Source: an uncultured Candidatus Poseidoniales archaeon
GTDB taxonomy: Archaea; Thermoplasmatota; Poseidoniia; Poseidoniales; Thalassarchaeaceae
Assembly: GCA_964576865.1 (NCBI GenBank)
Contig: CAZNVK010000002.1
Location: forward strand, 9,692 to 73,691
Length of the DNA stretch: 64,000 nucleotides
Reading direction: 5' to 3'
Position numbers and translations under genes: made by a program. Shown piece after piece: positions 14,996-44,176 of this stretch; position 1 is the first letter of the stretch; each line of letters opens with the position of its first letter. The notes beneath the pieces were generated by a model. That model saw nothing but the letters and a program-made list of their open reading frames with translations, had not been told where the DNA came from and made no database searches.

Positions 14996-15010
14996 TAAGC
15001 ACCCCCTCCC

Positions 15011-15236: not shown

Positions 15237-15254
15237 TTGGAGGATGGAACGAAG

Positions 15255-15530: not shown

Positions 15531-15532
15531 AC

Positions 15533-15787: not shown

Positions 15788-15820
15788 GCGGATTGAATCT
15801 GCCACAGAGTGAGAGTATAT

Positions 15821-15847
15821 CCTCCCACAACGCTCACGACGAACGCC
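15821..15847 (+). repeat. solo or degenerate left arm of the CCTCCCACAACG hairpin repeat family
   Basis: CCTCCCACAACGCTCACGACGAACGCC lies 34 bp after the stop of the + gene. No matching right arm is seen. Confidence 0.5.
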
Positions 15848-16019
15848 AAGATTGAGGGGCGTGGTAACTCTGTATTGGACCACTCTTACATTGAAATCGA
15901 TAGCCACTGAATCGAGATGATTGCCGCGGCGAGGTCTGACTTTCAGCTGCGCGGGAGTGCATTCAATCGCCGCGAAGCGGCTCCACTGAGCGCAGTCGCG
16001 CCCTAGAGGGTGCGACAGA

Positions 16020-20327: not shown

Positions 20328-20750
20328 TCAGCCCAATCCTGCCTTCCAAAGTTCTCCGTCGGCGCGGACTTCCTTCTTCCAAAGCGGGGCTTGGGCCTTG
20401 AGTTCGGCAATGAGCCAGGCACAGGCCTCGAATCCTTCGGCTCGATGCGGACTGCCGACGTGAATGCAGACGATGGGTTCGGCCGGCAACACGATTCCGG
20501 TACGGTGAGCCATCACCACCGATGAGACTCCGAAGCGCTCGACCGCTTCGATCGCGAGTCCATTGAGCACACTTGGCAACTTCTCTTCCCAAGCGTCGAA
20601 TTCGAGGCGTTCGACCTCAACGCCATCATCTTCACCCCTAGTCAGACCGACGAATGAGACCACGCTTCCACAGCCCTCCGGGTCCACAAGACCTCGAAGG
20701 ACCTCAGGGTCGAGGGCCTCCGCCTCGACCCTGACCACGATGCGAGCCAC
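20328..20750 (-). CDS. moaE: molybdopterin synthase catalytic subunit MoaE
   Basis: GTG start. MoaE-like (GSVVSFVGLTR.., VMAHRTG.., HRAEGFEACAWLIAELKAQAPLWKKE). Confidence 0.8.
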   Translation of the reverse strand: MARIVVRVEAEALDPEVLRGLVDPEGCGSVVSFVGLTRGEDDGVEVERLEFDAWEEKLPSVLNGLAIEAVERFGVSSVVMAHRTGIVLPAEPIVCIHVGSPHRAEGFEACAWLIAELKAQAPLWKKEVRADGELWKAGLG

Positions 20751-23031: not shown

Positions 23032-23045
23032 CCGAACCCGTTCGG
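23032..23045. promoter_or_regulatory. palindromic site CCGAAC-CC-GTTCGG
   Basis: Read directly. It ends 37 bp upstream of the GTG start at 23082. Confidence 0.5.
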
Positions 23046-23081
23046 CTTCTGCTTCATTCAAGTGTAACCGCGCGCTGAATC

Positions 23082-23576
23082 GTGAGTGAGTGGACGTTAA
23101 CCACCTTCCTACACATGGGTGCGGCGGCGACATGGATCGGGTCAATGGGAGTCTACGCCTTTCTTATCGCACCTTATGCGAAAAAGCGGTTCGATGAGGC
23201 CGAATATATCCACTTCCTCAACGACATCGGACTACGATTCCGTCGACTGAGTTGGTTCTGTCTTGCTGTAATCGCCGTGACCGGAGCCAGACTGGCAGAC
23301 CTCATCTCAGGTTGGGAGGCATTTACTACAGCCTATGGGCACACAATGCCTCCAGCGAGCACGATTGCTTGGAAGATGTTGCTCGGTGTAACTTTGGTAA
23401 TCGTTGTCGCTTACCATGATTTTAGAGCCGGGCCGAAGGCGATTGCGTCCTTCCTTGAGCAACCGGACTCACCAGAGACCAGACGCCTTCGAAAAATTGC
23501 CACGAATCACGCCAGAATGATGATGTTACTCTCGATCATCATTTTCTATCTCGGAGTTTCGGTGCTCCGAGGTTGA
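23082..23576 (+). CDS. membrane protein, possibly CopD-like (copper handling)
   Basis: GTG start. Four helices, with N-terminal FLHMGAAATWIGSMGVY resembling the H..aaa.W.G pattern of CopD-type domains. The assignment is weak. Confidence 0.4.
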   Translation: MSEWTLTTFLHMGAAATWIGSMGVYAFLIAPYAKKRFDEAEYIHFLNDIGLRFRRLSWFCLAVIAVTGARLADLISGWEAFTTAYGHTMPPASTIAWKMLLGVTLVIVVAYHDFRAGPKAIASFLEQPDSPETRRLRKIATNHARMMMLLSIIIFYLGVSVLRG

Positions 23577-23577
23577 A

Positions 23578-24036
23578 TCAACAGAAATCTGAATCTCGAA
23601 GTCTTACTCCTAGCGATTCACCATTGACGATTGCAATTCCGTAATCATACAATTCAGAATTCCACCGTTCATCGAATTGGTGCCGTTCTGGCCAGATAAC
23701 CTTGACATCGCCATACCATTGCATCCGCTGTGATAGTGACGGGACGAAGGACCATACATCCTCCACGCCGAACAGCGCGATGACTGAAATATCCGCATCG
23801 ACATCCTCAATCGAGCTCGAAACTGTCTTCCCTTTGATTCGTTTATCCTCACGTGCGCACAGTGGACATACGAACCTGACTGAATCGCCACGCTGCATCA
23901 ATCGGTCTGCTACAAATTGAGAGGGGTGTCCTATCTCGTGGTCTGCACAGACGAATAACCAATTGTGTTGTTTCAAAGCCCAAGCAGCTGCCTCACCGCG
24001 GTTAGCGTTCCTCAAGGTGTGTAAATCGAGTTCCAT
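23578..24036 (-). CDS. hypothetical protein
   Basis: ORF 23578..24117 trimmed to ATG 24036 (MELDLHTL..). It has a CPLC motif and low G+C. No family recognised. Confidence 0.35.
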   Translation of the reverse strand: MELDLHTLRNANRGEAAAWALKQHNWLFVCADHEIGHPSQFVADRLMQRGDSVRFVCPLCAREDKRIKGKTVSSSIEDVDADISVIALFGVEDVWSFVPSLSQRMQWYGDVKVIWPERHQFDERWNSELYDYGIAIVNGESLGVRLRDSDFC

Positions 24037-24072
24037 GAACGGAATGAGTTCTGCGCGAATCTCAACCTTCCC

Positions 24073-24086
24073 CCGAACATGTCCGA
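24073..24086. promoter_or_regulatory. palindrome-family site CCGAAC-AT-GTCCGA, with a second half-site CCATTC-AT-GTTCGG at 24114..24127
   Basis: Read directly. Both lie in the gap upstream of ATG 24176. Confidence 0.4.
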
Positions 24087-24175
24087 AGCAGCAAATCGGT
24101 GCACTCTGCCACACCATTCATGTTCGGGTCATACCCTATCACATCCCTTCCTTCCCGTTGGATTGAGGTGAAAGG

Positions 24176-25978
24176 ATGAACCTGAACCAATTGATGAAAA
24201 ACAGAACACAGACCGCAATGCTGCTCGCATTATTGATGGTAACAGCTCCGCTTCTGGCAGGCTGTGTCGGAGGTAGCGACCTGTCTTGTGGAGAAGGAAC
24301 AGAACGACTAGGAGACGAGTGCGTTGTCGACGACTCCGAGCCTGTATGGCAAGGAGAATGGAAGGAATTCAATGTCGAGGCCGCACAATGGGATTTCATC
24401 CCGAGTGAGATAATCGTGAACGAGGGCGACCACGTTCGAATCACCTTCACCTCGACGATGGATGAGCAGGATCAGTATTTGCTCCATTCATTCTCTCTGA
24501 ACGCGTACGATATCGCTGTCGACTTGCCTGTCGGTGAATCTGTAACGGTTGAGTTCGTCGCTGACCAAGTCGGCGAGTTCGGCTACGACTGCTCGGTCTT
24601 TTGTGGAGACCGACACAACGACATGCTCGGGACGGTGATCGTCAACCCCGCTGGCGGTCAGGTCGTCGAGGCTGCTCCAACAATTGGAAACACCACTGCA
24701 TTGGAGATTAGCACCCAAATTTACGACACCACGACATCACCTGGTGGCACACCTGGATGGGTAAACGGAGATTTGATGATAGTCATCGAGCGTGAAGCCG
24801 AAGCAGTCGTGGTTGTTGATACATCGACCGACGAGATTGTCGGCCGTATTCACGGCTTGGGATATCAGCCTCACACCGTGGTATTCGACGAAGAGGCACG
24901 TTACGGTTACCTAATCAGCCGAGGAGGATGGTTCTCGAAAATCGACCTTGATGACCTATCAGTACCTGCATACATCAAGGTCGGTGAATCAAGTAGAGGA
25001 ACCGCTCTATCTTCTAATGGCAACTGGATTGCTGTCACGAATTACGAACCTTCGTCCTTCGTAATTGTCAACGCCCACACGATGGATATCGCCATGGAAT
25101 ACCAAATTCCGGTCCCATGGGTAGACGGTGAACCCCAGTTCTCTCGAGCTGCTAGTGCACTCGACACCGCAAATGGATACATCTTCGTGGCGATGAAGGA
25201 TCTGGGTGAGATTTGGGTCATCGACGCAGATGAGACACGATGGAGCGAGAGCCCATTCCCAGTCGTAAAGGTGTTCAACCACCAAGGTGGAATGCTCCAC
25301 GACGCATTCATCACCCCTGACGGACAGTACTACATTCTGGCTAGCCAAACCAGCCATCAGATGGCTGTTATCGACGCCGTCAATCTAGAGGAAGTTGCTC
25401 TTGTTGAGGTCGGGTTGAAGCCTCACCCAGGCCCAGGAGCGGTCTGGGCTGACTACATTTTCACCCCAAGTATTGGTGAGGGAAAACTCAACATCATCGA
25501 TTCAAGAACTTGGTCGAACGAGTTCGAGTTGCCAATCGGTGGTCCAGCGCTTTTCACAAGAACCTACGAGTTCGGTGACCCCACTACCGATGAGGAGTGG
25601 GAGAAGGACCCAGCCAACCTGCAGTATCCATACATCTGGTGGGACACAGTTCTCTCGACCGATATGGAGGAGAACAAAGAGGTCTACGTCCTCGACGCCC
25701 GTGAGCTCTATGTCCCAGGAGCGACCGATGATAGCATCGCTGCGACCGTCTGGACGCTGAAAGACAACGATTGTGAAGGTCGTACGCTGCACCCCGAATT
25801 CAGCCACGATGGAACCAAGGTGTATGTCTCGTGCTGGGCCGAGGAGGGATTCCTGTTGATCTACGAGTCGACGCCTGGTGCTGATGGCGAGTTCGACCTG
25901 CTCGGAAAGATCGAAGGAATCGCCAATCCGACTGGAACCTTCGGTGTCGGACTAAGGTCCGAGGAGATTGGAGTCTGA
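24176..25978 (+). CDS. lipoprotein: N-terminal CuA-type cupredoxin domain fused to cytochrome-cd1 (NirS d1-domain)-like beta-propeller
   Basis: Lipobox LLAGC. The CuA ligand pattern is HSF-x32-CSVFCGDRHNDM (H-x34-C-x3-C-G-x2-H-x2-M). Propeller segments match NirS from memory: GYQPHTVVFDEEARYGYL, MLHDAFITPDGQYY, KPHPGPGAVW, HPEFSHDGTKVYVSCW and NPTGTFGV. Confidence 0.7.
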   Translation: MNLNQLMKNRTQTAMLLALLMVTAPLLAGCVGGSDLSCGEGTERLGDECVVDDSEPVWQGEWKEFNVEAAQWDFIPSEIIVNEGDHVRITFTSTMDEQDQYLLHSFSLNAYDIAVDLPVGESVTVEFVADQVGEFGYDCSVFCGDRHNDMLGTVIVNPAGGQVVEAAPTIGNTTALEISTQIYDTTTSPGGTPGWVNGDLMIVIEREAEAVVVVDTSTDEIVGRIHGLGYQPHTVVFDEEARYGYLISRGGWFSKIDLDDLSVPAYIKVGESSRGTALSSNGNWIAVTNYEPSSFVIVNAHTMDIAMEYQIPVPWVDGEPQFSRAASALDTANGYIFVAMKDLGEIWVIDADETRWSESPFPVVKVFNHQGGMLHDAFITPDGQYYILASQTSHQMAVIDAVNLEEVALVEVGLKPHPGPGAVWADYIFTPSIGEGKLNIIDSRTWSNEFELPIGGPALFTRTYEFGDPTTDEEWEKDPANLQYPYIWWDTVLSTDMEENKEVYVLDARELYVPGATDDSIAATVWTLKDNDCEGRTLHPEFSHDGTKVYVSCWAEEGFLLIYESTPGADGEFDLLGKIEGIANPTGTFGVGLRSEEIGV

Positions 25979-25988
25979 TTATCGTAAG

Positions 25989-26030
25989 CCGTTGGGGGGC
26001 GACCAGCCCCCCAACGGCCCCCCATTTTTT
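25989..26030 (+). terminator. stem-loop plus T-run
   Basis: CCGTTGGGGGGC-GACCA-GCCCCCCAACGG (12-bp stem) is followed by CCCCCCATTTTTT. Confidence 0.6.
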
Positions 26031-26043
26031 GGAGTTGAACTCT

Positions 26044-26466
26044 ATGAAAATACCACTTAACGTCGAGAGGATGATGGATACAGACGTTATCAAATTGAGT
26101 GGAAATACTAACGTGACTCAAGCCATGGAATCGATGCACGAAGCCGGTGTATGGTCTGTCATCGTCACTCTGGATGGAGAACCCAGAGGCGTTGTCACCG
26201 AACGCGACCTACTCCGTAGATGCTTCAGACCGAAGCAGAATCCAGACTTTGTTCTCCTGAGGGAGATTATGAGTTATCCATTGGTGACTATCGACCGTGA
26301 TCTGCCCGTCGGCTCTGCCCTCAATCTGCTTCTCGCCGACGAGATTAGACGAATCTACGTCATCAATGCCGAGGGCAATATAATCGGCAGAGTGACACAG
26401 ACGGGTTGCCTCGAGGCTACTCTCAATCTGATTCTCGGAATGCAAAGTACGTTCGAACAGATCTAG
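26044..26466 (+). CDS. CBS-domain pair protein
   Basis: ATG 26044 (the TTG at 26029 sits inside the terminator T-run). Two CBS-like units (..VIKLSGNTNVTQAMESM....VIV.., ..PLVTIDRDLPVGSALNLL..IRRIYVIN). Confidence 0.65.
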   Translation: MKIPLNVERMMDTDVIKLSGNTNVTQAMESMHEAGVWSVIVTLDGEPRGVVTERDLLRRCFRPKQNPDFVLLREIMSYPLVTIDRDLPVGSALNLLLADEIRRIYVINAEGNIIGRVTQTGCLEATLNLILGMQSTFEQI

Positions 26467-26500
26467 ATCGACCTGACGCCGCGAGAGAATCCTGTCAAGT

Positions 26501-27082
26501 TCAGAACCCACACCAGATTCGTTCTTCCATAGACTCGATTAGTTCCGAATCGATATGCCAGAACCCAATCCACTCGCCATCAACCATACGTCCTTCGTAA
26601 GCTTCAACTCTCGATTCTGAGGTTAAACTGCCTGAATGGTATTCAATATCGCCAGAGGTGAATCCTCGGACGATAAAGACGACTCCATCGGACTCAAGAT
26701 CTAGAATCGAATCATCTCCACTCGAGCCGAAAACTCCCTCGATTTGGAAATTTCCAATTTCATCAACCGTGGCGATGAATCCATCTCTACCACCACGGTT
26801 GGTTTGGTTCTCGAATCCAGGAGAAGCAGACTCCCAAGTCCCTGCGATGTGAAGAGACCCCTCGATCAATACCACATCGCTGATCGTAGTCTTCCCCTCT
26901 CGTGATTCAGATGGATTTCGCGCGAGGTCAAGAGACTCCAGTGTCGATATCTGCTCCAGGGTCAGATCGGCAGAGGTCACTCCAGCCGACTCAGAACCTC
27001 CTCCAAGCAGAATCATTGGGGACATCGCCAAGAGGATCGCCAAGGCGAATGGCGCAGATACAAGAAGCAGCTTGTTTTCCAT
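26501..27082 (-). CDS. secreted beta-propeller-repeat-like protein
   Basis: Trimmed to ATG 27082 (MENKLLLVSAPFALAILLAMSP signal). Has GGRDGFIATVD and GSSGDD repeat-like motifs. Confidence 0.45.
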   Translation of the reverse strand: MENKLLLVSAPFALAILLAMSPMILLGGGSESAGVTSADLTLEQISTLESLDLARNPSESREGKTTISDVVLIEGSLHIAGTWESASPGFENQTNRGGRDGFIATVDEIGNFQIEGVFGSSGDDSILDLESDGVVFIVRGFTSGDIEYHSGSLTSESRVEAYEGRMVDGEWIGFWHIDSELIESMEERIWCGF

Positions 27083-27120
27083 CTTGGAAGGCCTGACTTG
27101 ATGGATTTCCAATAATTCGC

Positions 27121-27134
27121 CCGAACATGTTCGT
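27121..27134. promoter_or_regulatory. palindromic site CCGAAC-AT-GTTCGt (distal, upstream of a TTTTATT box)
   Basis: Read directly. It lies in the divergent gap 27083..27224. Confidence 0.5.
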
Positions 27135-27172
27135 AATCACTCTTGATTTTATTCTCGATGTTTCTAACAACA

Positions 27173-27186
27173 CCGAATCTGTTCGG
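27173..27186. promoter_or_regulatory. palindromic site CCGAAT-CT-GTTCGG (proximal)
   Basis: Read directly. It ends 39 bp upstream of the coxC ATG 27225. Confidence 0.5.
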
Positions 27187-27224
27187 GTCTCAGGTAATGG
27201 TGCTCGCAGCACTCGCCGGTTCAG

Positions 27225-28013
27225 ATGAACGATTTGAACGCACTACTCCACCATGATTCAAATGGCCAGGTTCACAACAGTCTAGCACCTCTAATCGTAG
27301 CCCTCGCCGTTACACTCTGCTTAGGTGGGTTGCTCATCTGGCCCCTCGCGATTCTCGGCTTACCACTGTTGATTCTGGGGATCAGAACTTGGCTCGCAGA
27401 GGAGGTCGAATTTTGGCCAAAAAGAGAATCGCAAACAGATTTCGAGGTTTGGGGAGACGCGTCTTGGGCGATGCTATGGATCATCATAACGGAGACCATA
27501 GTGTTCTCCGCATTCTTCGCCTACTGGTTCTGGACTCGTTGGCACACCGTGAACTGGTCGGGCGCTGTTGGTGGATCGTGGCCAGCTACAGGGGTCGACC
27601 ATGACTTGTTCTTGGTTGGGATCAACACCATCCTGTTGATCTCTTCTGGATTCACAGCACATCGAGCCTTGGAAGCACACGATCGAGATGACCTCAACTC
27701 CTCGTCCAAATTCCTCGTTGCAACAATCCTTCTCGGAACCGCGTTCCTCGCGATACAGGCATACGAGTATCTACATGCGGGATTCGTCTGGAGTGACCAT
27801 CCCTACGGCACCGCATTCTTTGCACTGACTGGCCTACACGGTCTACACGTTCTGGTTGGCTTGGTCATGCTCGCCGTGGTTCTTTTGCTGATGAAAACGG
27901 ATCGTTTTCCTCGTGCACGTCACGATGGTTTTCGAGCGATTACCAATTATTGGCACTTCGTTGACGCCGTCTGGATTATCCTGTTCTTCGTTGTCTACTT
28001 GGAGGTGATTTGA
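27225..28013 (+). CDS. coxC: cytochrome c oxidase subunit III
   Basis: Multi-TM, with ..FFALTGLHGLHVLVG.. and ..YWHFVDAVWI.. signatures. Confidence 0.85.
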   Translation: MNDLNALLHHDSNGQVHNSLAPLIVALAVTLCLGGLLIWPLAILGLPLLILGIRTWLAEEVEFWPKRESQTDFEVWGDASWAMLWIIITETIVFSAFFAYWFWTRWHTVNWSGAVGGSWPATGVDHDLFLVGINTILLISSGFTAHRALEAHDRDDLNSSSKFLVATILLGTAFLAIQAYEYLHAGFVWSDHPYGTAFFALTGLHGLHVLVGLVMLAVVLLLMKTDRFPRARHDGFRAITNYWHFVDAVWIILFFVVYLEVI

Positions 28014-28756
28014 TGCGATTCAACAAGACCCAACTCGGGCTCATCATCGGTTCCATATTGGTTTTGATGATGACGTTCGCATCCATCTTCAACTGGTTCC
28101 GAGGACTCGGTGGCAGTGGCGCTCACGCAGAGGTTTACGACGAGCTGTTTACTCTGTATTGGGTGCTTGGAAGCATAATCGGGATAATCGTTTACGCCTG
28201 GTTCGTCTACTTGCTCGTCGGTTCCTTCGGCGATGATGCCGGCGAGCCGATGGAGATTGGCGCAGCACCAGTGATTCGAGGCTCAAACAAGGGTGCGGTC
28301 ACCATTTCGGTAGTGATAATGGTCTTCCTGCTCGTTCTCTCGGACACTACATTCGATTCGATCGACTTTTTTGAGAAGCACGAGGAACATACTACCGAAG
28401 ACTCGTTCACAATTGCAGTGACTGGATACCAGTACTATTGGGATTATCAGTATCCGAATGGTAAGAGCATCAACAGCGCCAGCGGTGAGGCACTGAAGAT
28501 TCCCGTCGATGTTCCTGTTGTCTTCGAAGTCACCGCTGGTGACGTCTTCCATTCCTTCGCACTCCCCGACCATCGCATCAAGATCGATGCGATTCCTGGT
28601 CGTGTGAATGAAGGGTGGATACTTGCCGATGAGATTGGCATGTTCCCTGTTCGCTGCGCGGAGCTTTGCGGAGATGAACACGCAATCATGGTTGGTGAAA
28701 TCGAAGTCATGACAGTGGAAGACTTCGATGCTTGGTATGAGGAGGTGGAAGTTTGA
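28013..28756 (+). CDS. coxB: cytochrome c oxidase subunit II (CuA)
   Basis: The ATG overlaps the coxC stop (TGATG). Two N-terminal TMs. CuA motif HSFALP...CAELCGDEHAIM. Confidence 0.85.
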   Translation: MRFNKTQLGLIIGSILVLMMTFASIFNWFRGLGGSGAHAEVYDELFTLYWVLGSIIGIIVYAWFVYLLVGSFGDDAGEPMEIGAAPVIRGSNKGAVTISVVIMVFLLVLSDTTFDSIDFFEKHEEHTTEDSFTIAVTGYQYYWDYQYPNGKSINSASGEALKIPVDVPVVFEVTAGDVFHSFALPDHRIKIDAIPGRVNEGWILADEIGMFPVRCAELCGDEHAIMVGEIEVMTVEDFDAWYEEVEV

Positions 28757-31014
28757 TCGGTTCGAAGAAGAAAATCAGTACAAGCAAGGCTCTGTCCATA
28801 CTCGTCATCAGTTCACTGCTGCTCATCGCAACACCACAATTCGCAGCACTTCCGGGTGGAATCTCAGGGCCATCCGTTGGAGCTGGATGTAATTGTCATG
28901 GGGCGGTTGCCAGCGATGATGTCACAATTATCTTGGAGGGATTGCCGGATGAGTTCATCGCTGGTGAGACGTACCTTGTAAACATCTCATTCGAGGGTGG
29001 GCCCGAAGCAAGTGGAGAGAATTATGGTGGATTCAATCTAGCCGCATCTCGAGGCACTTTCACTGTGCTCGATAACTCCATCCAAATCATGGATGGCGCT
29101 GTGACACACAGCGAATCGGGTAATGACCAAAGGTCCTGGCAAGTTGAGTGGACAGCACCATCTTCTGACAAGGTGAGTTCTCAATTCACCCTGCTCGTTA
29201 ATTCCGTCAATGGTGATGGCTACGCCACTAGCGATGACAAGTGGAATCGCCTCGATTTCTCTGTCCAAGGTCAGAACGCAGGCTCTGGTTCGATTATGGA
29301 CATCGCCGACCCCGCTTGGTTGATCATCGTCGGCGCATTGATTGGTACGATTCTGGCTGTGGTCTATGCACTATATCGAAAGCCCAATTTCGGTCGCAAG
29401 GAGTTGATGCATTGGCTGACGACTACAAACCACAAGGATATCGGTCTGCTCTACCTGTGGACGACGATTCTGTTCTCGATGATCGGACTGGCTCTCTCAG
29501 TCCTAATTCGTCTACAGCTCGTCGTGCCTGACAATGATTTCATGACTGGAGATCTGTTCAACCAAGCAGTCACGATGCATGGCGCCGTGATGGTGCTATT
29601 CGCGATCTCGCCGATGTCATTCGCCTTCGCGAATTACATCGTTCCACTACAAATCGGCGCCCGCGACATGGCCTTCCCACGGCTGAACGCCTTGTCATTC
29701 TGGACACTTCTTCTGGGAGGATTGGTTGCAGCGTCGGGCTTCTTTTTCGATGGAGCGGCTGATGTCGGCTGGACATTCTACTCGCCGCTCACCAGCATCG
29801 AGTACAGCCCAGGATCAGGTGTATCACTTGCTGGTGCTGGACTAGTCCTTCTCATCATCTCGGTGACAGCCTCGACGGTGAATTTCCTCGTCACAATCTC
29901 GAATCACCGAGTTCCGAGCATGAGGATGTGGGACATGCCCATGTACACCTGGAACGTTCTGTTCACCGTTATCCTCATGCTCGTTGTCTTCCCTGCACTT
30001 CTGGCCGCCGTCCTGATGCTCGTAGGTGACAGAGTCTTCGGCACTATGTTCTTCGATCCCAGCATCGATGGAACTACCTGGTGGCTTCACATCTTCTGGT
30101 TCTTCGGCCACCCCGAGGTCTACATCGTTCTGCTTCCTGGACTCGGGATGGCGATGGAGATCGTCCCTACCTTTGTGCGTAAGCATCTCTACGGTCGCAA
30201 GACCATCATCTACGCTTTGATGATCGCCTCAGTCCTCAGTGTATTGGTCTGGGCTCACCACATGTTCATCACAGGAATCGACCCACTATTCCGCAAGATA
30301 GAGACCATCGGCACCGAACTCATCTCGGTGCCGTTCGCGCTCATCTATCTGAGCCTGCTCGCAACTTTCCACAAATCCAAACCAGATTTCACGAAGTTGC
30401 CACTCGTCTTCGTCATGGGTGCAGTTGGGATATTCCTAGTTGGTGGAATCACAGGAGTATATCTCGCCAGCGTGGCTATGGACGTACAATTACGAGGCAC
30501 ATACTTCATCGTCGCTCACTTCCACTACACACTCGGCGCGGTGGCTGTGATGACCCTCGGCGGAATCTACTACTGGTATCCCAAGATGTTCGGGAGGATG
30601 CTCGATGAACGGTTGGGATGGTGGCATTTCTGGACTACATTCCTAGGAATCAATCTGACATTCATCCCTCTATTCGGCTTGTGGGACATGCCCCGCCGAA
30701 TATACGTCTATCAGGTCGAGGCGGGATGGGCTGACCAGCACCTCTGGGCAACCATCGGCTCCCTCGTGGTCTTTATTGGTCAGGTTATCTTCTTCTGGAA
30801 TTTCATCCGCAGCCTCAAGCACGGCGAAGAGGCTGGCGACGACCCCTGGGGAGGACACACCTTTGAGTGGTTGACGAGCTCCCCTCCGCCCGCACACAAT
30901 TGGGACAATCTACCAATGATGTCAGGTTGTATCGATTGTGGTAATTGTGACTGTTCGAAGGAAATCGGTGGTAGATGCTCAAGCTGCGAGAAGACCTTGA
31001 ATATCCCTGCGTGA
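28753..31014 (+). CDS. coxA: cytochrome c oxidase subunit I with extra N-terminal secreted reeler-like GCxCHG domain and C-terminal Cys-rich tail
   Basis: The TTG start overlaps the coxB stop (TTGA) and has GGAGGTGG 5 nt upstream. The subunit I core has WFFGHPEVY and AHHMF. The first ~190 aa are a signal plus a non-oxidase domain. The last 32 aa carry 6 Cys. Confidence 0.85.
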   Translation: MIGSKKKISTSKALSILVISSLLLIATPQFAALPGGISGPSVGAGCNCHGAVASDDVTIILEGLPDEFIAGETYLVNISFEGGPEASGENYGGFNLAASRGTFTVLDNSIQIMDGAVTHSESGNDQRSWQVEWTAPSSDKVSSQFTLLVNSVNGDGYATSDDKWNRLDFSVQGQNAGSGSIMDIADPAWLIIVGALIGTILAVVYALYRKPNFGRKELMHWLTTTNHKDIGLLYLWTTILFSMIGLALSVLIRLQLVVPDNDFMTGDLFNQAVTMHGAVMVLFAISPMSFAFANYIVPLQIGARDMAFPRLNALSFWTLLLGGLVAASGFFFDGAADVGWTFYSPLTSIEYSPGSGVSLAGAGLVLLIISVTASTVNFLVTISNHRVPSMRMWDMPMYTWNVLFTVILMLVVFPALLAAVLMLVGDRVFGTMFFDPSIDGTTWWLHIFWFFGHPEVYIVLLPGLGMAMEIVPTFVRKHLYGRKTIIYALMIASVLSVLVWAHHMFITGIDPLFRKIETIGTELISVPFALIYLSLLATFHKSKPDFTKLPLVFVMGAVGIFLVGGITGVYLASVAMDVQLRGTYFIVAHFHYTLGAVAVMTLGGIYYWYPKMFGRMLDERLGWWHFWTTFLGINLTFIPLFGLWDMPRRIYVYQVEAGWADQHLWATIGSLVVFIGQVIFFWNFIRSLKHGEEAGDDPWGGHTFEWLTSSPPPAHNWDNLPMMSGCIDCGNCDCSKEIGGRCSSCEKTLNIPA

Positions 31015-31024
31015 AGGGGCGCTT

Positions 31025-31573
31025 ATGCAGGACGATCGCTGGGCATGGCTCATCGCTCTGTTCTGCGCCCTGCTGATAGCCTTCGCTCCCTCGGCTGTCG
31101 CGGATGACCACGATGAGGACGAGGATGAACACGATGACGAAGGCAGGGAGAACGAATTGGAGGATGCTGGCGAGACTGTTGGTGAGATCTCTGCCTGGTT
31201 GCTGGGTTTGACTCTGGCGTACTTCGGATGGAAAAGGGTCCTGCCGCCGATTCGAAAGCGATTGAAGGCGTCCGAACAGAAGGACCAACTCAAACGATTG
31301 AACTCATGGAACAAGCGTGCCATTCCCATCCACACTCTCCTCGGGACTGCGGCTCTGATTACCGGATTCATTCACGGATTGATGATGGACGAATCGCATC
31401 CAACCCTGTGGATCGCCCTCTTCCTCATGGGCGTTCTATCCGTGTCAGGTAGTCTGATGCGATGGAAATGGCCGCCTCGTGAAGTCAAGAGAGGTGCCCG
31501 ATTGCTACACATGCAGAGGCTGATATCGCTCGTGGTCGTGGCGCTCCTCTTCGTAGGTCACGAGATGGTCTGA
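31025..31573 (+). CDS. membrane protein: signal, Asp/Glu/His-rich segment, 4 TM helices with 4 His (cytochrome-b-like)
   Basis: DDHDEDEDEHDDEGRENELED, then helices carrying IPIHTLLG, FIHGL, LLHMQ and VGHE. Confidence 0.5.
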   Translation: MQDDRWAWLIALFCALLIAFAPSAVADDHDEDEDEHDDEGRENELEDAGETVGEISAWLLGLTLAYFGWKRVLPPIRKRLKASEQKDQLKRLNSWNKRAIPIHTLLGTAALITGFIHGLMMDESHPTLWIALFLMGVLSVSGSLMRWKWPPREVKRGARLLHMQRLISLVVVALLFVGHEMV

Positions 31574-31610
31574 AAGCCGGAATCTACCAAATAATCGGCA
31601 TTACACTCAA

Positions 31611-31626
31611 CCCGAACATGTTCGGG
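31611..31626. promoter_or_regulatory. perfect 16-bp palindrome CCCGAACATGTTCGGG, with a half-site CCTGCT-AT-GTTCGG at 31651..31664
   Basis: Read directly. The ATG at 31618 lies inside the palindrome, so I place the CDS start downstream. Confidence 0.55.
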
Positions 31627-31671
31627 GCGAGTGATATTGTGCTTACTTTGCCTGCTATGTTCGGGGGTCAG

Positions 31672-32355
31672 ATGCGAGCAAGACTAACTCCTCCATCCGG
31701 TGGCTTCTTGGCGAAGGGGTCCGTCATTTCACTACTGATCATTCTCCTTCTGGCTCCCACTTCATTCGCATTTCCTACAGGCATCTCTGGTTCATCGGTT
31801 GACCTAGGTTGTATGTGCCATGGTGACGCGACCACCGACGAGTCGGTCGAGATCCAGTTACTCGGTCTGCCCGAAGTCTGGGATGTCGGAGTTGCCTATG
31901 AACTGACTCTGCAGGTGAGCTCGGCTGTCCCTGAGAATGGAGAAACAACAGCTGGATTCAATCTGCGAGCGACCGCAGGTATTCTAGTTGCGATTGACAC
32001 CTCTGTCCAATTATTGGATGGTGAATTGACCCATACCGAAGCAGGCAACTCTCAAAGGTCCTGGGATTTCATCTGGACGGCCCCCTCGAAGGCTAGTCCA
32101 AGGGTCGGATTCAAAGCCTTCGTCAATACTGTCGATGGAGATGGAACCGCTGATTCTGAGGACCGGTGGAACTCCTTCGAGACGCAGGCCAATGGACCCG
32201 CAGCGGTTTGGACGGGTACTGATTCTCCTCCCGTTTGGAAATCCATGCTTCTGGGTCTCTTCCTCGCAGCGATTGTAGTAAACATCCTCCCTCATGGTGG
32301 TGGAGCAGCTGAGATTCGCGGCAAGAGAAGCCAGATCTCAGAAGGCGAGGAATGA
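31672..32355 (+). CDS. secreted, C-terminally anchored paralog of the CoxA N-terminal GCxCHG (reeler-like) domain
   Basis: Start trimmed to ATG 31672 (MRARLTPPSG.. signal). It aligns by eye with CoxA residues ~30-190: GISGxSV..GCxCHG, GLP, GFNLxA, THxExGNxQRSW..WTAPS, VNxVxGDG..WN. C-terminal TM LLGLFLAAIVVNIL. Confidence 0.55.
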   Translation: MRARLTPPSGGFLAKGSVISLLIILLLAPTSFAFPTGISGSSVDLGCMCHGDATTDESVEIQLLGLPEVWDVGVAYELTLQVSSAVPENGETTAGFNLRATAGILVAIDTSVQLLDGELTHTEAGNSQRSWDFIWTAPSKASPRVGFKAFVNTVDGDGTADSEDRWNSFETQANGPAAVWTGTDSPPVWKSMLLGLFLAAIVVNILPHGGGAAEIRGKRSQISEGEE

Positions 32356-32396
32356 ATATGGGAAGTGTACCAAGCATGGTCCGGAGAAAGGTCGAC

Positions 32397-33050
32397 ATGC
32401 AGCACCTCCTGATTTCAATCCGTCTTCCTGAGGGGCATTGGGCTGGGGATTTAACTCGGTCTAATCCAGGCGTATCAATTCGAGTTGACGAACATATGGC
32501 CCTTCCCGAAGGCCGAGGTCTCAGCACTATCGTTGTAGCTGGAAATGGCATGGATCGCTTCGTTAGCGACCTCGAAGCTCACGACGGAATGGAGGGAGCA
32601 GCCATTTTCGAAGAGCATGAGGACACGATCGAAATGAGTGTTACAATCGCACGTCACGGTGGAGGATTCCTTCGCCCACTAATCAGAGCCGAAGTGACGC
32701 CACAGACACCTTTCACTGTCAGGGATGGTTGGGTTGAATGGGAGTTTGTAACCGACCACGAGCACGTCAAGAAGTTAGTGAAGGGGCTCAAAGAGTCCGA
32801 ACTCCCACACAGAATCCACTCACTCTCAAAGGAATCGACTTCTCGCCTATTGACGGTAAGACAACGCGAGGTCTTCGACCTAGCTGTATCTGAGGGATAT
32901 TATGACAATCCACGTCGCATCACTCTGACCGCGCTCGCAGAGAAGGCGGGCGTCTCCAAATCAACACTCTGTGAGATGATTCACCTCATCGAGAAGAACA
33001 TCATCGATGAATTTGCAGATTCCGTAAGGAGGCAGAGTCCAAGAGACTGA
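32397..33050 (+). CDS. HTH_10 (bacterio-opsin-activator-type) transcription regulator
   Basis: C-terminal LTVRQREVFDLAVSEGYYDNPRRITLTALAEKAGVSKSTLCEMIHLIEKNI. Trimmed to ATG 32397. Confidence 0.7.
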   Translation: MQHLLISIRLPEGHWAGDLTRSNPGVSIRVDEHMALPEGRGLSTIVVAGNGMDRFVSDLEAHDGMEGAAIFEEHEDTIEMSVTIARHGGGFLRPLIRAEVTPQTPFTVRDGWVEWEFVTDHEHVKKLVKGLKESELPHRIHSLSKESTSRLLTVRQREVFDLAVSEGYYDNPRRITLTALAEKAGVSKSTLCEMIHLIEKNIIDEFADSVRRQSPRD

Positions 33051-44148: not shown

Positions 44149-44176
44149 GCGAATTGAATCCGCGTCGTAACGCGCT

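What the first reader, a model, noticed from the sequence alone, without database searches (positions are those of the whole stretch)
23032..33050. Lower-G+C ~10 kb respiratory island: an aa3-type oxidase operon surrounded by non-canonical copper/heme-domain genes under a shared palindrome
From about 23.0 to 33.1 kb the composition drops. Hand counts give 29/60 G+C at 28021-28080 and 29/60 at 30241-30300. Outside the island I counted 38/60 at 20401-20460 and 44/60 at 40741-40800. The segment holds the following genes in order:
- A CopD-like membrane protein.
- A CuA-cupredoxin/cd1-propeller lipoprotein.
- A CBS protein and a secreted propeller-like protein.
- coxC-coxB-coxA, translationally coupled through TGATG and TTGA overlaps.
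- A His-rich 4-TM protein.
- A free copy of the domain fused to CoxA.
- An HTH_10 regulator.

No c-type cytochrome (CxxCH) or bc1/Rieske gene is present, although the oxidase needs an electron donor. The co-localised extra domains are therefore candidates for an undescribed electron-entry or copper-delivery module. The compositional step plus the private operator motif suggests a horizontally acquired, co-regulated unit.
Basis: partly seen in the sequence, partly recalled or inferred. Interest (0 to 1): 0.8.

Follow-up and report, generated by a model that had tools for sequence, protein, structure and literature searches.

The report
Marine archaeal oxidase island, shared operator
This 10-kb stretch is the conserved respiratory-oxidase locus of Marine Group II archaea, not a foreign insertion; it is wired to the same DNA operator and regulator type that controls denitrification in salt-loving archaea, and it carries two undescribed copper-domain fusions whose function is still open.

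Summary
G+C falls to 0.521 at 23.03-33.05 kb against 0.57-0.58 outside, the listed genes are there, and the palindrome is real.

- **Not a foreign island.** The gene block sits between the same flanking genes in about 17 Poseidoniales genomes of 38-59% G+C, with no tRNA, integrase or border repeats.
- **But a distinct unit.** All 11 genes have depressed GC3. Against the closest relative, their synonymous sites are saturated while the flanks are not.
- **Operator not private.** CCGAACATGTTCGG lies about 42-56 nt upstream of the start codons of island genes across the order. Its core is identical to the Haloferax nor/nosZ promoter motif. The island's HTH_10 regulator has full-length homologues inside haloarchaeal nirK-nor clusters.
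- **CoxA fusion.** The domain fused to CoxA, also present as a free copy, is a Reeler-fold "choice-of-anchor V" domain with an invariant Cys-x-Cys-His. It is cox-linked in three deep archaeal lineages.
- **600-aa lipoprotein.** It is NirS-like, with all three catalytic His residues, but has a CuA domain where NirS has haem c. Relatives carry a cupredoxin-NirK fusion in the same slot.

The roles of both fusions (copper relay or electron entry; nitrite reduction) are inferred, not shown.

The parts
23032..23045 (.). Operator palindrome CCGAACCCGTTCGG. Its centre is 44 nt upstream of the copD-like start codon.
   Evidence: 0 mismatches. The same site at the same spacing occurs in L008, L016 and L018.
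23082..23576 (+). CopD-domain membrane protein, 164 aa.
   Evidence: Pfam CopD 36 bits against a cut-off of 32.1. NCBIfam CopD equivalog scores only 27 against 195. Present in L008, L016 and L018.
23578..24117 (-). CoA_binding_2-like protein. The likely true start is M28 at 24036.
   Evidence: Weak Pfam PF13380 hit. Called as a 152-aa gene in L005. It neighbours cox in L004, L012, L013, L015, L019 and L092.
24073..24086 (.). Degenerate operator copy CCGAACATGTCCGA with 2 mismatches. It lies 44 nt upstream of the CoA-binding gene's M28 start and 96 nt upstream of the CuA-d1 gene.
24176..25978 (+). Lipoprotein made of an N-terminal CuA cupredoxin domain and a C-terminal haem-d1-type eight-bladed propeller. 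It is NirS-like, with CuA in place of the haem c domain.
   Evidence: Cytochrom_D1 158 bits; Cupredoxin_1; CuA motif H104...C139-x3-C143-x3-H147-x2-M150. NirS His200, His345 and His388 equivalents (H233, H375, H417) are invariant in the family. One homologue, P0013, has a CxxCH domain in the same N-terminal position.
26029..26466 (+). Stand-alone CBS-pair protein.
   Evidence: Pfam CBS 75 bits. Conserved next to cox in most Poseidoniales loci.
26501..27112 (-). Secreted or anchored 203-aa protein of unknown family, divergent from coxC. The likely start is M11 at 27082.
   Evidence: No family hit. Present in nearly all Poseidoniales cox loci. An operator lies 46 nt upstream of the M11 start.
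27121..27134 (.). Operator copy A, CCGAACATGTTCGT. It serves the 203-aa gene.
27173..27186 (.). Operator copy B, CCGAATCTGTTCGG. Its centre is 46 nt upstream of the coxC ATG.
27225..28013 (+). coxC, oxidase subunit III.
   Evidence: Pfam COX3 121 bits.
28010..28756 (+). coxB, oxidase subunit II with a complete CuA site.
   Evidence: TIGR02866 160 bits against a cut-off of 148. Motif C216-x3-C-x3-H-x2-M. Its start overlaps the coxC stop.
28753..31014 (+). coxA, A1-type subunit I (aa about 221-722). It carries a signal peptide, a Reeler-fold 'choice-of-anchor V' domain (aa 23-166, nt 28819-29250, motif CNCH) and one extra TM helix. It ends in a Cys-rich C-terminal tail.
   Evidence: COX1 424 bits; NF041895 93 bits against a cut-off of 42. 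HPEVY and NHKD motifs were read in the sequence. The TTGA overlap with coxB is confirmed. The N-terminal domain is present in 17 Poseidoniales loci, and also in L088 and L093.
31025..31573 (+). Membrane protein with a signal peptide, an acidic tail and four TM helices. It has four invariant His residues, two in TM2 and two in TM4. It is a candidate di-haem b-type protein.
   Evidence: Family restricted to MGII. H103, H117, H162 and H179 are invariant. It lies 10 nt after the coxA stop. It is cox-linked only here and in L008.
31612..31625 (.). Perfect operator CCGAACATGTTCGG upstream of the free Reeler-like gene and HTH_10 unit.
   Evidence: 0 mismatches. It occupies the same position in L008, L010, L012, L013, L015, L019 and others. 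It lies upstream of HTH_10 itself where the free copy is missing, as in L014 and L017.
31618..32355 (+). Free, C-terminally TM-anchored paralogue of the CoxA N-terminal domain (motif CMCH). The true start is probably M14 or M19 (31657 or 31672).
   Evidence: NF041895 87 bits. 43% identity to the CoxA domain. AF2 pLDDT 93. Best Foldseek match is the F-spondin Reeler domain at E 3e-6.
32352..33050 (+). Short Bat-type HTH_10 transcription regulator, probably autoregulated.
   Evidence: HTH_10 57 bits. It has full-length homologues of about 30% identity in haloarchaeal nirK-nor clusters.

Best explanation
The segment is the Poseidoniales (Marine Group II) respiratory locus, and it forms one regulon.

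**Shown**
- An A1-type haem-copper oxidase operon, coxC-coxB-coxA, lies with accessory genes between conserved flanking genes across the order.
- The copD-like, CoA-binding-like, 203-aa, coxC and free Reeler-like/HTH_10 units each have a CCGAAC-NN-GTTCGG palindrome centred about 44-54 nt upstream of the start codon (the CoA-binding copy is degenerate, 2 mismatches). The CuA-d1 gene has only that degenerate copy, 96 nt upstream, plus a half-site.
- The island's HTH_10 protein is a full-length homologue of regulators encoded in haloarchaeal nirK-nor clusters. Those promoters carry the identical motif.

**Inferred: regulation.** The HTH_10 protein binds the palindrome just upstream of BRE/TATA. 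It acts as an activator that responds to oxygen or redox state, and it regulates its own gene.

**Inferred: nitrite reductase slot.** The variable slot upstream of cox holds a nitrite-reductase-type enzyme. Here it is a d1-propeller with NirS's catalytic histidines that takes electrons through a CuA domain instead of haem c. Other genomes have a cupredoxin-NirK fusion with a homologous N-terminal head.

**Inferred: Reeler-fold domain.** The Cys-x-Cys-His domain sits on the outer face next to the CuA domain of CoxB and handles copper. The most likely role is passing Cu(I) from the free membrane-anchored copy to the fused copy and on to the oxidase copper sites. The alternative is that it acts as the electron-entry site.

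**Composition.** The low G+C is a property of the block itself: about half comes from amino-acid composition and about half from codon choice. The block has a deeper history than its flanks. The best fit is whole-block homologous replacement between Poseidoniales lineages, not import from outside the order.
For: **Synteny.** The order ECH | (CopD/CoA-binding) | (CuA-d1 or NirK) | CBS | 203-aa | coxCBA | (free Reeler-like copy) | HTH_10 | PaaA recurs, with lineage-specific gaps, in L008-L024, covering Thalassarchaeaceae and Poseidoniaceae.

**Operator.** It is enriched in the window. It keeps its position in genomes of 38-59% G+C. Its core is identical to the H. mediterranei nosZ/nor motif CGAACATGTTCG, and mutating that motif lowers anoxic promoter activity (PMC10062603).

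**Regulator.** Its tblastn matches in the plasmid collection are in Halobacteria (the ten commonest genera and all 15 listed records): 88-97% coverage, E down to 3e-24. In Halogeometricum pHBOR02 the homologue lies beside qNor and nirK. A perfect CCGAACATGTTCGG lies 56 nt upstream of it, and four more copies with 1 mismatch lie in the cluster. PMC11218638 names short Bat-type regulators in the nirK-nor cluster as the candidate regulators.

**CuA-d1.** Domain hits, the CuA motif and the invariant H233, H375 and H417 support it. NirK takes the same slot in L013 and L014 and lies in tandem with CuA-d1 in L004. That NirK passes the TIGR02376 cut-off, 353 bits against 296. Its N-terminal 164 aa are 33% identical to the head of the window protein, E 9e-15.

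**Reeler-like domain.** There are 808 representative homologues with invariant G-C-x-C-H-G and T-H. The model is confident and matches Reeler folds. The domain is fused to CoxA in three CoxA lineages whose cores are only 38-43% identical. It is encoded beside or fused to plastocyanin-like domains.

**Block history.** Identity at fourfold-degenerate sites is 0.26-0.46 in all 11 island genes and 0.49-0.75 in most flanking genes. NG86 dS is saturated inside the block and 0.39-1.1 outside it.
Against: - No expression, binding or biochemical data exist for any part.
- The regulator lacks any recognisable sensor domain and has a single Cys, so its signal is unknown.
- Activation versus repression rests on spacing alone, and no transcription start has been mapped.
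- No haem d1 biosynthesis genes (nirJ, nirF, nirN) are in the window. The rest of the genome could not be searched.
- Overall the propeller scores higher against NirF and NirN than against NirS.
- CuA-d1 and NirK co-occur in L004 and L001. This argues against simple functional equivalence.
- The cofactor of the Reeler-like domain is unknown. L024 lacks the fusion, and L011, L014 and L017 lack the free copy. L088 has an Sco1 gene nearby, so the domain is not simply a substitute for Sco.
- A locus-specific mutation regime could produce the saturated dS and low GC3 without any transfer.
Confidence: 0.6

Rival explanations
1. This is a recently acquired foreign genomic island with its own private operator. 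It brings a new electron-entry or copper-delivery module made of all the co-located extra domains.
For: There is a real G+C and GC3 step with sharp borders. Synonymous divergence inside the block is far above that of the flanks. The nearest CoxA relatives outside Poseidoniales among the best 80 hits are bacterial, from Chloroflexota and Acidimicrobiia at 41-46% identity. An old inter-domain origin of the cox genes is therefore plausible.
Against: The same locus and flanks occur across the order. There is no tRNA, integrase or border repeat. The operator and regulator are shared with Halobacteria. CuA-d1 stands alone in L002/L003 and has only a NirK-type neighbour, no cox, in L001. The 4-TM gene lies elsewhere in L007, L098 and L100.
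Confidence: 0.08
2. The Reeler-fold Cys-x-Cys-His domain is the electron-entry site of the oxidase. It would be a copper (or other) redox centre that replaces cytochrome c. In this lineage the adjacent four-His membrane protein would feed it, carrying electrons across the membrane.
For: CoxB has a full CuA site, so a one-electron donor is needed. The window encodes no cytochrome c, and MGII is reported to have cytochrome b plus Rieske but no canonical bc1 complex (PMC6336850). The domain is a permanent fusion on the outer face of CoxA in three lineages. Fusions exist with a plastocyanin-like domain (P0091) and with a four-His 4-TM DUF4079 domain (P0187). Eukaryotic CYBDOM proteins combine Reeler, DOMON and cytochrome b561 domains (PMC10691727). 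The 4-TM gene has moved into the cox operon in this lineage.
Against: Cys-x-Cys-His resembles Cu(I)-chaperone chemistry more than any known electron-transfer site. The role of the Reeler domain in CYBDOM proteins is itself unknown. Plastocyanin-like or cupredoxin donors are encoded beside cox in other lineages together with this domain. The 4-TM protein matches no cytochrome b family: hhalign probability 0.9% and no significant Foldseek match. It is not cox-linked in most genomes.
Confidence: 0.22
3. The compositional and divergence anomaly involves no transfer at all. The locus simply evolves under its own regime: AT-biased mutation, weak codon selection or conditional expression. That regime would lower GC3 and raise dS in every lineage.
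For: Orthologous blocks are also lower in G+C than their flanks in most relatives, whatever the genome G+C. L008 is still the closest relative of the window for the island genes. Nearly half of the dip is due to amino-acid composition.
Against: The borders are sharp and coincide for GC3 and dS, across genes on both strands. Under equal divergence time, dN/dS would be implausibly high for the cox genes: about 0.14-0.28 from dN 0.086-0.167 over a flank-like dS of about 0.6. CuA-d1 and HTH_10 have dN like the flanks yet saturated dS. Four relatives show no dip.
Confidence: 0.3
4. The CuA-d1 protein is not a nitrite reductase. It could be a d1-family propeller with another role. One candidate is a tetrapyrrole-processing enzyme like NirN or NirF. 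Another is an oxygen, hydroxylamine or NO reductase, or an electron-transfer partner of the oxidase.
For: The best PDB sequence matches are NirF (1e-28) and NirN (1e-25), against 1e-13 for NirS. No d1 biosynthesis genes lie nearby. It co-occurs with NirK in L004 and L001. These organisms are described as obligate aerobes (PMC6336850).
Against: His375, equivalent to NirS His345, is absent from NirF and NirN but invariant here. All three NirS histidines are kept across 12 homologues down to 32% identity. A redox head domain, CuA or haem c in P0013, is typical of a reductase.
Confidence: 0.35

Closest known systems
Haloarchaeal denitrification regulon: motif CGAAYATDKTYG with short Bat/HTH_10 regulators (NarO/DmsR type, and H. 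mediterranei E6P09_00735 in the nirK-nor cluster)
   Same: The 12-nt core CGAACATGTTCG is identical, and in Halogeometricum so is the 14-mer CCGAACATGTTCGG. The sites lie in intergenic DNA tens of nucleotides upstream of start codons. The regulator is homologous over its full length, is encoded inside the regulated cluster and is preceded by its own site. Nitrite-reductase and copper-protein genes belong to the regulon.
   Different: Here the main target is an aerobic aa3-type oxidase operon, and the host is a non-halophilic planktonic order. No nor, nos or nar genes are present. The signal is unknown. The window protein has one Cys. By my recollection NarO has a Cys cluster, but this was not checked because the paper is not held.
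Cytochrome cd1 nitrite reductase NirS
   Same: It has an eight-bladed haem-d1 propeller with the proximal His and both distal catalytic His residues. An N-terminal one-electron entry domain is fused to it.
   Different: The entry domain is a CuA cupredoxin, not a haem c domain. The protein is a lipoprotein. Overall sequence is closer to NirF and NirN. No d1 biosynthesis genes were seen. I found no description of this architecture. PMC8756737 reports cupredoxins added to c-haem-containing NirS in Chloroflexi, not replacing the haem c domain.
caa3-type oxidases (a donor domain fused to the oxidase), and the CopZ / CopA N-terminal domain pairing (a free chaperone plus a homologous fused domain)
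   Same: An extra extracytoplasmic domain is permanently fused to a core oxidase subunit, and a free paralogue is encoded next to it.
   Different: The fusion is to the N-terminus of subunit I through an added TM helix. The fold is Reeler-like, not cytochrome c or ferredoxin-like. The cofactor is unknown. Both analogies come from established knowledge and were not tested.
Eukaryotic CYBDOM proteins (SDR2/FRRS1, Drosophila CG8399): Reeler + DOMON + cytochrome b561
   Same: A Reeler-fold extracellular domain is associated with a transmembrane multi-His redox protein.
   Different: There is no DOMON domain. The prokaryotic domain carries an invariant Cys-x-Cys-His on its N-terminal arm. The 4-TM neighbour is not a detectable cytochrome b561 relative.

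Membership tests
A1-type haem-copper oxygen reductase (aa3-type cytochrome oxidase) | Subunit I profile, with the HPEVY His-Tyr/Glu motif and the D-channel NHKD motif | tested here: met
   COX1 424 bits; TIGR02891 564 bits, which is below its equivalog cut-off of 671. GHPEVY and NHKDIG were read in the translation.
A1-type haem-copper oxygen reductase (aa3-type cytochrome oxidase) | Subunit II with a binuclear CuA site (H...C-x3-C-x3-H-x2-M), plus subunit III | tested here: met
   TIGR02866 160 bits against a cut-off of 148. Motif at C216. COX3 121 bits.
A1-type haem-copper oxygen reductase (aa3-type cytochrome oxidase) | Haem a / a3 as cofactors | not testable with these tools
   No ctaA or ctaB gene lies in the window. 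The rest of the genome is not available.
Cytochrome cd1 nitrite reductase (NirS) | Haem-d1 propeller with a proximal His and two distal catalytic His residues | tested here: met
   PF02239 158 bits. H233, H375 and H417 align to His200, His345 and His388 of P. pantotrophus NirS and are invariant in 12 homologues.
Cytochrome cd1 nitrite reductase (NirS) | N-terminal haem c domain (CxxCH) | tested here: not met
   No CxxCH motif. A CuA cupredoxin occupies that position. Homologue P0013 keeps CxxCH there.
Cytochrome cd1 nitrite reductase (NirS) | Haem d1 biosynthesis genes (nirJ, nirF, nirN and others) in the genome | not testable with these tools
   None lie in the window or in the 10-kb flanks of L001, L004 and L005. 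Whole genomes could not be queried.
Haloarchaeal denitrification-type regulon (HTH_10 regulator + CGAACATGTTCG operator) | HTH_10 DNA-binding domain, and full-length homology to regulators in haloarchaeal nirK-nor clusters | tested here: met
   PF04967 57 bits. 30% identity over 207 aa to WP_006054673, E 5e-32 pairwise. Genomic context shown.
Haloarchaeal denitrification-type regulon (HTH_10 regulator + CGAACATGTTCG operator) | Semi-palindromic motif CGAAYATDKTYG in the promoters of regulated genes | tested here: met
   Sites at 27122-27133 and 31613-31624 match CGAACATGTTCG exactly. The site at 23033 has CC instead of AT at its centre. Positions are conserved across the order.
Haloarchaeal denitrification-type regulon (HTH_10 regulator + CGAACATGTTCG operator) | Induction at low oxygen, and direct binding of the regulator to the motif | not testable with these tools
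   Needs expression data, EMSA or ChIP.
Choice-of-anchor V domain (NF041895) / Reeler fold | Profile match above the curated cut-off | tested here: met
   93 bits (CoxA N-terminus) and 87 bits (free copy) against a cut-off of 42.
Choice-of-anchor V domain (NF041895) / Reeler fold | Membership of Pfam Reeler (PF02014) | tested here: inconclusive
   Pfam 19.6 bits, below the cut-off of 21. Fold match to F-spondin Reeler has E 3e-6 and TM about 0.5. Profile against spondin-1 gives E 0.005.
CopD copper-homeostasis membrane protein | CopD domain, and full-length equivalence | tested here: inconclusive
   The Pfam domain is met at 36 bits against 32.1. The NCBIfam equivalog is not met at 27 against 195. 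The protein covers only about half the length of CopD.
Horizontally acquired genomic island | Compositional deviation with sharp borders | tested here: met
Horizontally acquired genomic island | Absence from the same site in relatives, and mobility signatures (tRNA, integrase, flanking repeats) | tested here: not met
   The block is present at the same site in Poseidoniales loci L008-L024. The only tRNA is at 48144. The borders share no repeats of 10 nt or more. No integrase or transposase domains were found.
Di-haem transmembrane cytochrome b (for the 182-aa 4-TM protein) | Two pairs of conserved His residues in two TM helices | tested here: met
   H103/H117 and H162/H179 are invariant in 13 sequences.
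Di-haem transmembrane cytochrome b (for the 182-aa 4-TM protein) | Sequence or fold relationship to a known cytochrome b family | tested here: not met
   No Pfam or NCBIfam family. hhalign against DUF4079 gives probability 0.9%. The PDB profile search gives nothing relevant. AF2 pLDDT is 66. Foldseek E is above 1, and the only compact match is cytochrome b561 4o6y at probability 0.75.

The most novel reading that the evidence does not exclude
The Reeler-fold Cys-x-Cys-His domain is an unrecognised class of extracytoplasmic copper centre. It would serve as the built-in electron entry of the haem-copper oxidase in marine archaea that lack cytochrome c. In this lineage it would be fed by the four-His membrane protein. 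The CuA-d1 lipoprotein would be a new, haem-c-free class of NirS-type nitrite reductase in one of the ocean's most abundant archaeal groups.
Probability: 0.2. Interest if true: 0.85.

Novelty: new variant of a known kind. Interest (0 to 1): 0.6.

Why it matters
**Missing electron carrier.** Marine Group II archaea are among the most abundant planktonic archaea and have never been cultured. Their electron path from cytochrome b/Rieske to the oxidase has no identified carrier (PMC6336850). An order-wide fusion of an uncharacterised metal-binding domain to CoxA gives a concrete, testable candidate for that step, or for copper delivery.

**Haloarchaeal regulator.** The identical operator in MGII and in haloarchaeal denitrification clusters is a cross-order phylogenetic footprint. 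It nominates the cluster-encoded short HTH_10 protein as the binder of a motif whose regulator is still called unknown in Haloferax mediterranei (PMC10062603, PMC11218638).

**Marine nitrogen cycling.** Two alternative nitrite-reductase-type genes share a cupredoxin head next to cox. If active, MGII may contribute to nitrite and NO turnover in low-oxygen water.

**Population genetics.** The block-wise saturation of synonymous sites suggests that respiratory loci are exchanged as cassettes within the order.

Tried and rejected
**Foreign-island hypothesis.** Rejected on synteny and on the lack of tRNA, integrase or border repeats.

**'CxCH' as a haem c site.** Rejected. No CxxCH motif occurs anywhere. 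By established knowledge, haem c attachment needs CxxCH-type motifs and a maturation system. The fold search gave no haem protein.

**The 4-TM protein.**
- The AF2 model was poor, pLDDT 66.
- Foldseek gave nothing with E below 1.
- The PDB profile search gave only spurious hits.
- hhalign against the DUF4079 domain of P0187 was negative.
- Its context in L007, L098 and L100 is not conserved.

**Literature.** A search on 'choice-of-anchor' found nothing about type V. The search for MGII plus halocyanin returned 0 papers. Searches for CuA-d1 fusions found only the Chloroflexi NirS paper. Hattori et al. 2016 on NarO is not held, so NarO itself was never compared.

**Haloarchaeal clusters.** The nirK-nor clusters L090 and L091 contain no homologues of the Reeler-like, CuA-d1, 4-TM, 203-aa or CopD-like genes.

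**Other archaeal cox loci.** The chV-bearing loci L088 and L093 have no palindrome and no HTH_10 homologue. The regulon was therefore seen only in Poseidoniales and Halobacteria.

**Topological test of block replacement.** Amino-acid identity matrices were inconclusive. L008 stays closest for both island and flanks, only relatively deeper for the island.

**Replication origin.** I looked for origin-type repeats upstream of cdc6 and found none.

Full report

Yes.
- G+C is 0.521 for 23032-33050, against 0.584 upstream and 0.572 downstream.
- The lowest 10-kb window of the whole 64 kb starts at 23.0-23.4 kb.

I recoded each gene with the codon usage of the 39 genes outside the block.
- Amino-acid composition explains 0.028 of the 0.062 drop, and synonymous codon choice explains 0.034.
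- GC3 is 0.58 where 0.67 is expected.
- All 11 genes lie below expectation (Mann-Whitney p = 3.5e-6).
- The genes on either side have the highest GC3 in the neighbourhood, 0.715 and 0.749, so the borders are sharp.

**2. Gene content**

| Window coordinates | Strand | Product | Evidence |
|---|---|---|---|
| 23082-23576 | + | CopD-domain protein | Pfam 36 bits, just above cut-off |
| 24176-25978 | + | 600-aa lipoprotein, CuA cupredoxin + Cytochrom_D1 propeller | 158 bits |
| 26029-26466 | + | CBS pair | |
| 26501-27112 | - | secreted 203-aa protein | no family match |
| 27225-31014 | + | coxC-coxB-coxA | |
| 31025-31573 | + | 182-aa 4-TM protein | |
| 31618-32355 | + | 245-aa free paralogue of the CoxA N-terminal domain | |
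| 32352-33050 | + | HTH_10 regulator | 57 bits |

- The TGATG and TTGA overlaps are present.
- CoxA has GHPEVY and NHKDIG, and CoxB has a full CuA motif. This is an A1-type oxygen reductase that needs a one-electron donor.
- No CxxCH or Rieske motif occurs in any called gene of the window.
- Pfam scans of the other window genes found no blue-copper, cytochrome b, Sco, Cox11 or haem A/O synthase genes.
- Tully 2019 reports that MGII has complexes I and II, a cytochrome b plus a Rieske protein but no canonical bc1, and a low-affinity oxidase (PMC6336850).

**3. Organism and synteny**

A scan of one genome per GTDB species with CoxA returned 18 Poseidoniales loci.
- CoxA identity is 72-78% for those named Thalassarchaeaceae and 66-69% for those named Poseidoniaceae.
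- The next hits are bacterial, from Chloroflexota and Acidimicrobiia at 41-46%, and lack the N-terminal domain.

A tblastn search with every island protein shows a conserved order across the order:

ECH | (CopD-like and/or CoA-binding) | (CuA-d1 or a NirK-type gene) | CBS | 203-aa (-) | coxC-coxB-coxA | (free domain copy) | HTH_10 | PaaA-like | 203-aa

- The flanking genes are the same as in the window.
- There is no tRNA (the only one is at 48144), no integrase or transposase domain, and no repeat of 10 nt or more shared by the two borders.
- The block is therefore an ancestral locus of the order and not an insertion.

**4. The block nevertheless has its own history**

The closest relative is GCA_016845365.1 (L005/L008).

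| Measure | Flanking genes | 11 island genes |
|---|---|---|
| Protein identity | 95-99% immediately adjacent | 62-93% |
| NG86 dS | 0.39-1.1, with two outliers | not computable or above 1.1 |
| Identity at fourfold-degenerate sites | 0.49-0.75 | 0.26-0.46, close to random |

- CuA-d1 and HTH_10 have flank-like dN (0.044 and 0.055), yet their dS is saturated too.
- The steps are abrupt: ECH 0.64 to CopD 0.34, and HTH_10 0.31 to PaaA 0.70.
- Nucleotide identity is 84-93% in the adjacent flanks and 63-81% inside the block.
- In most relatives the orthologous block is also lower in G+C than its flanks (L008 0.484/0.567, L012 0.393/0.454, L013 0.524/0.588, L019 0.423/0.484). In L004, L011, L016 and L017 it is not.

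If the block had diverged over the same time as the flanks, dN/dS for the cox genes would be implausibly high. I therefore prefer replacement of the whole block by a more divergent Poseidoniales allele through recombination in the conserved flanks. A locus-specific AT-biased, fast synonymous regime is the main rival. Identity matrices did not give a clean topological conflict.

**5. The palindrome and the regulator**

In the window:
- CCGAAC-NN-GTTCGG occurs with at most 1 mismatch only at 23032, 27121, 27173 and 31612, all intergenic.
- The window total at up to 2 mismatches is 13 against 4.3 +/- 2.1 expected.

Across Poseidoniales loci spanning 38-59% G+C:
- The same 14-mer, usually CCGAACATGTTCGG, keeps its position.
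- Its centre lies about 42-56 nt upstream of the start codons of coxC, the divergent 203-aa gene and the free domain gene.
- Where the free domain gene is missing, it lies upstream of HTH_10 itself.
- It also precedes CopD-like, CoA-binding and sometimes CBS genes.
- The regulator is thus probably autoregulated.
- The ATG inside the 31612 palindrome is unlikely to be the real start of the free copy. M14 or M19 gives a normal signal peptide.

The motif is not private:
- Its 12-nt core is identical to the semi-palindrome of the Haloferax mediterranei nosZ and nor promoters. The nirK promoter has CGAATATGTTCG, and the consensus is CGAAYATDKTYG.
- Point mutations in that motif reduce promoter activity under anoxia. 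The motif marks about 83 promoter regions, and its regulator is described as unknown (PMC10062603).
- A follow-up RNA-seq paper points to short Bat-type HTH regulators lacking PAS and GAF domains, especially one inside the nirK-nor cluster (PMC11218638).

The window's regulator links the two systems:
- In the plasmid collection, the ten commonest genera and all 15 listed records among its 146 matching records are Halobacteria, and the listed matches cover 88-97% of the protein at about 30% identity.
- In Halogeometricum borinquense pHBOR02 the homologue sits between two DUF2249 genes and qNor + nirK, near halocyanins and a multicopper oxidase.
- A perfect CCGAACATGTTCGG lies 56 nt upstream of that homologue, and four copies with 1 mismatch lie in neighbouring intergenic regions.
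- In Natribaculum the homologue lies directly upstream of qNor.

So the regulator-operator pair is the same kind as in haloarchaeal denitrification clusters. Here it is attached mainly to an aerobic oxidase. If transcripts are leaderless, the spacing places the site just upstream of BRE/TATA. That position, together with the positive effect seen in Haloferax, suggests activation. This is inference.

**6. The CuA-d1 lipoprotein**

Structure and conservation:
- The N-terminal domain has the complete CuA ligand set (H104, C139, C143, H147, M150). Its best match is the CuA domain of NosZ.
- The propeller matches NirF (1e-28), NirN (1e-25) and NirS (1e-13) in the PDB.
- In the alignment to Paracoccus pantotrophus NirS, the proximal ligand His200 and both distal catalytic residues, His345 and His388, are conserved as H233, H375 and H417. 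NirF and NirN lack the His345 equivalent.
- All three are invariant in 12 homologues down to 32% identity.
- One homologue, P0013, has a CxxCH cytochrome c domain exactly where the others have CuA.
- Homologues are few (15 in the indexed search) and include Poseidoniaceae and Heimdallarchaeota MAGs.

Genomic context in relatives:
- The gene is not tied to cox. It stands alone in the Heimdall locus and pairs with a multicopper-type gene in L001 and L004.
- That partner is a copper nitrite reductase by NCBI's equivalog model (353 bits against a cut-off of 296). It carries an N-terminal plastocyanin-like type-1 copper domain.
- The same NirK fusion lies next to cox in L011, L013, L014, L022 and L023. 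In L013 and L014 it occupies the same slot that CuA-d1 occupies here.
- The first 164 residues of the NirK fusion (lipoprotein leader, Cys-containing linker and cupredoxin) are 33% identical to the head of the window's protein, E 9e-15.
- Two unrelated nitrite-reductase bodies therefore carry a homologous copper head in this order.

The window has no NirK. I found no published description of a CuA-for-haem-c NirS. The Chloroflexi paper describes cupredoxins added in front of c-haem domains (PMC8756737). Whether these archaea can make haem d1 could not be tested.

**7. The domain fused to CoxA**

What it is:
- Both copies match NCBIfam 'choice-of-anchor V' (93 and 87 bits against a cut-off of 42). 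They are 43% identical to each other.
- An exhaustive search found 808 representative homologues. Most are about 200-230 aa, with a signal peptide, the domain and a C-terminal anchor.
- G-C-x-C-H-G, a T-H pair and two Trp residues are invariant or nearly so.
- The AF2 model is confident (pLDDT 93).
- Its best structural neighbours are the Reeler domains of F-spondin (E 3e-6, TM about 0.5). The sequence profile also reaches them (E 0.005).
- No copper or haem protein appears among the structural matches.

Topology, read from the sequence:
- The order is signal peptide, domain outside, one extra TM helix, then the normal cytoplasmic N-terminus of CoxA.
- The domain therefore sits on the same side as the CuA domain of CoxB.

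Distribution:
- The fusion is present in 17 Poseidoniales loci; L024 lacks it.
- It also occurs in two other archaeal cox operons whose CoxA cores are only 38-43% identical to this one (L088 and L093).
- In L093 the free copy follows a plastocyanin-like gene beside cox.
- P0091 fuses the domain to a plastocyanin-like domain. P0187 fuses it to a four-His DUF4079 membrane domain.
- L088 has an Sco1 gene nearby.

Interpretation:
- Taken together, this is a cox-associated extracytoplasmic metal domain.
- Three things favour a copper-relay role. The ligand set is Cys-x-Cys-His. A free and a fused paralogue occur together, as in the CopZ/CopA pattern (from established knowledge). A CopD-domain gene shares the regulon.
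- Two things keep an electron-entry role open. The fusion to the enzyme is permanent, and no other donor is encoded in the window.
- I put these at roughly 0.4 and 0.2, with the rest unknown.

**8. The 4-TM protein**

- The family is restricted to MGII.
- After a signal peptide and a very acidic stretch come four helices. H103 and H117 lie in TM2, and H162 and H179 in TM4. All four are invariant.
- That geometry would fit two haems on opposite sides of the membrane.
- No profile, hhalign or fold evidence supports this.
- Its location differs between lineages.
- In L007 it lies between HSP70/PspC and an M17 peptidase. That region is syntenic with window 54-63 kb, where the gene is absent.
- So in the window + L008 lineage the gene has moved to a position 10 nt downstream of coxA. 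This hints at a functional link but does not prove one.

**9. Verdict**

It is not a foreign island, and its operator is not private. The locus is a new variant of known systems, an aa3 oxidase operon under a haloarchaeal-type denitrification regulator. It contains two architectures that I could not find described: Reeler-like-CoxA and CuA-d1.

Noticed in passing
window 30931-31011 (CoxA aa 727-753): CoxA ends in a Cys-rich cytoplasmic tail, GCIDCGNCDCSKEIGGRCSSCEKT, with seven Cys residues. In most relatives the tblastn match stops near residue 721-726, while L008 and L016 match to the end (L020 and L015 reach residues 751 and 746). It may be a zinc-ribbon-like or metal-binding extension.
   Followed up: partly
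window 58791-58944: In L007 the spacer between the M17 peptidase and HSP70 genes holds PspC and the 4-TM gene. Here it holds neither. It is 155 nt long and contains 2.8 copies of a 24-nt tandem repeat plus two 9-nt arrays (58809-58920).
   Followed up: partly
window 7946-8900: A gap of about 955 nt with no ORF of 70 aa or more lies upstream of a Cdc6/Orc1 gene (8901-10139). G+C dips to 0.52 there, so it may be a replication origin. No direct or inverted repeats of 14 nt or more were found. In L004 the CuA-d1 gene lies directly downstream of Cdc6.
   Followed up: partly
L004:13620-14222, L011:15717-16205, L014:1548-2090, L023:7286-7915: Every MGII NirK fusion examined except those in L001, L013 and L022 is followed by a 160-210-aa secreted protein with a cupredoxin-like region. 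That region ends in VDC-x-I-(Y/F)-CGE-x2-NGR. The two Cys residues are spaced as in CuA, but the His and Met ligands are missing. No family matches.
   Followed up: partly
L024:9911-10094; L011, L014, L017: L024 CoxA lacks the Reeler-like N-terminal domain but keeps the free copy. L011, L014 and L017 keep the fusion but have no free copy between coxA and HTH_10. So neither copy alone is universal.
   Followed up: no
L020:7943-9248, L023:8652-10006: Two tandem HTH_10 paralogues follow the cox block in these Poseidoniaceae-type loci. These loci also have weaker operator matches or none.
   Followed up: no
window 20328-20750 and 38820-39401: MoaE and a 193-aa AAA_33 kinase-like gene are dS outliers outside the block when compared with L008 (dS 1.9 and 2.1, fourfold-site identity 0.42 and 0.38). 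Mosaic divergence is therefore not confined to the cox block.
   Followed up: no
window 15001-16000 and 44001-46000: Smaller G+C dips occur here (0.515, and 0.53-0.54). The second covers a 715-aa PAP2-domain membrane protein, which fits a membrane-protein composition effect.
   Followed up: no
window 31055-31140 (4-TM protein aa 11-38 region): An extremely acidic, His-containing stretch, DDHDEDEDEHDDEGRENELED, follows the signal peptide of the 4-TM protein. The stretch is acidic in all homologues. It may be a cation-binding or partner-docking tail on the outer face.
   Followed up: no
L090 (Halogeometricum borinquense pHBOR02) 3309-7943: Five copies of the CCGAACATGTTCGG-type palindrome lie in intergenic DNA of the haloarchaeal cluster. 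They lie next to the multicopper-oxidase, radical-SAM RiPP, DUF2249 and regulator genes. This suggests the regulon there extends beyond nirK and nor.
   Followed up: partly
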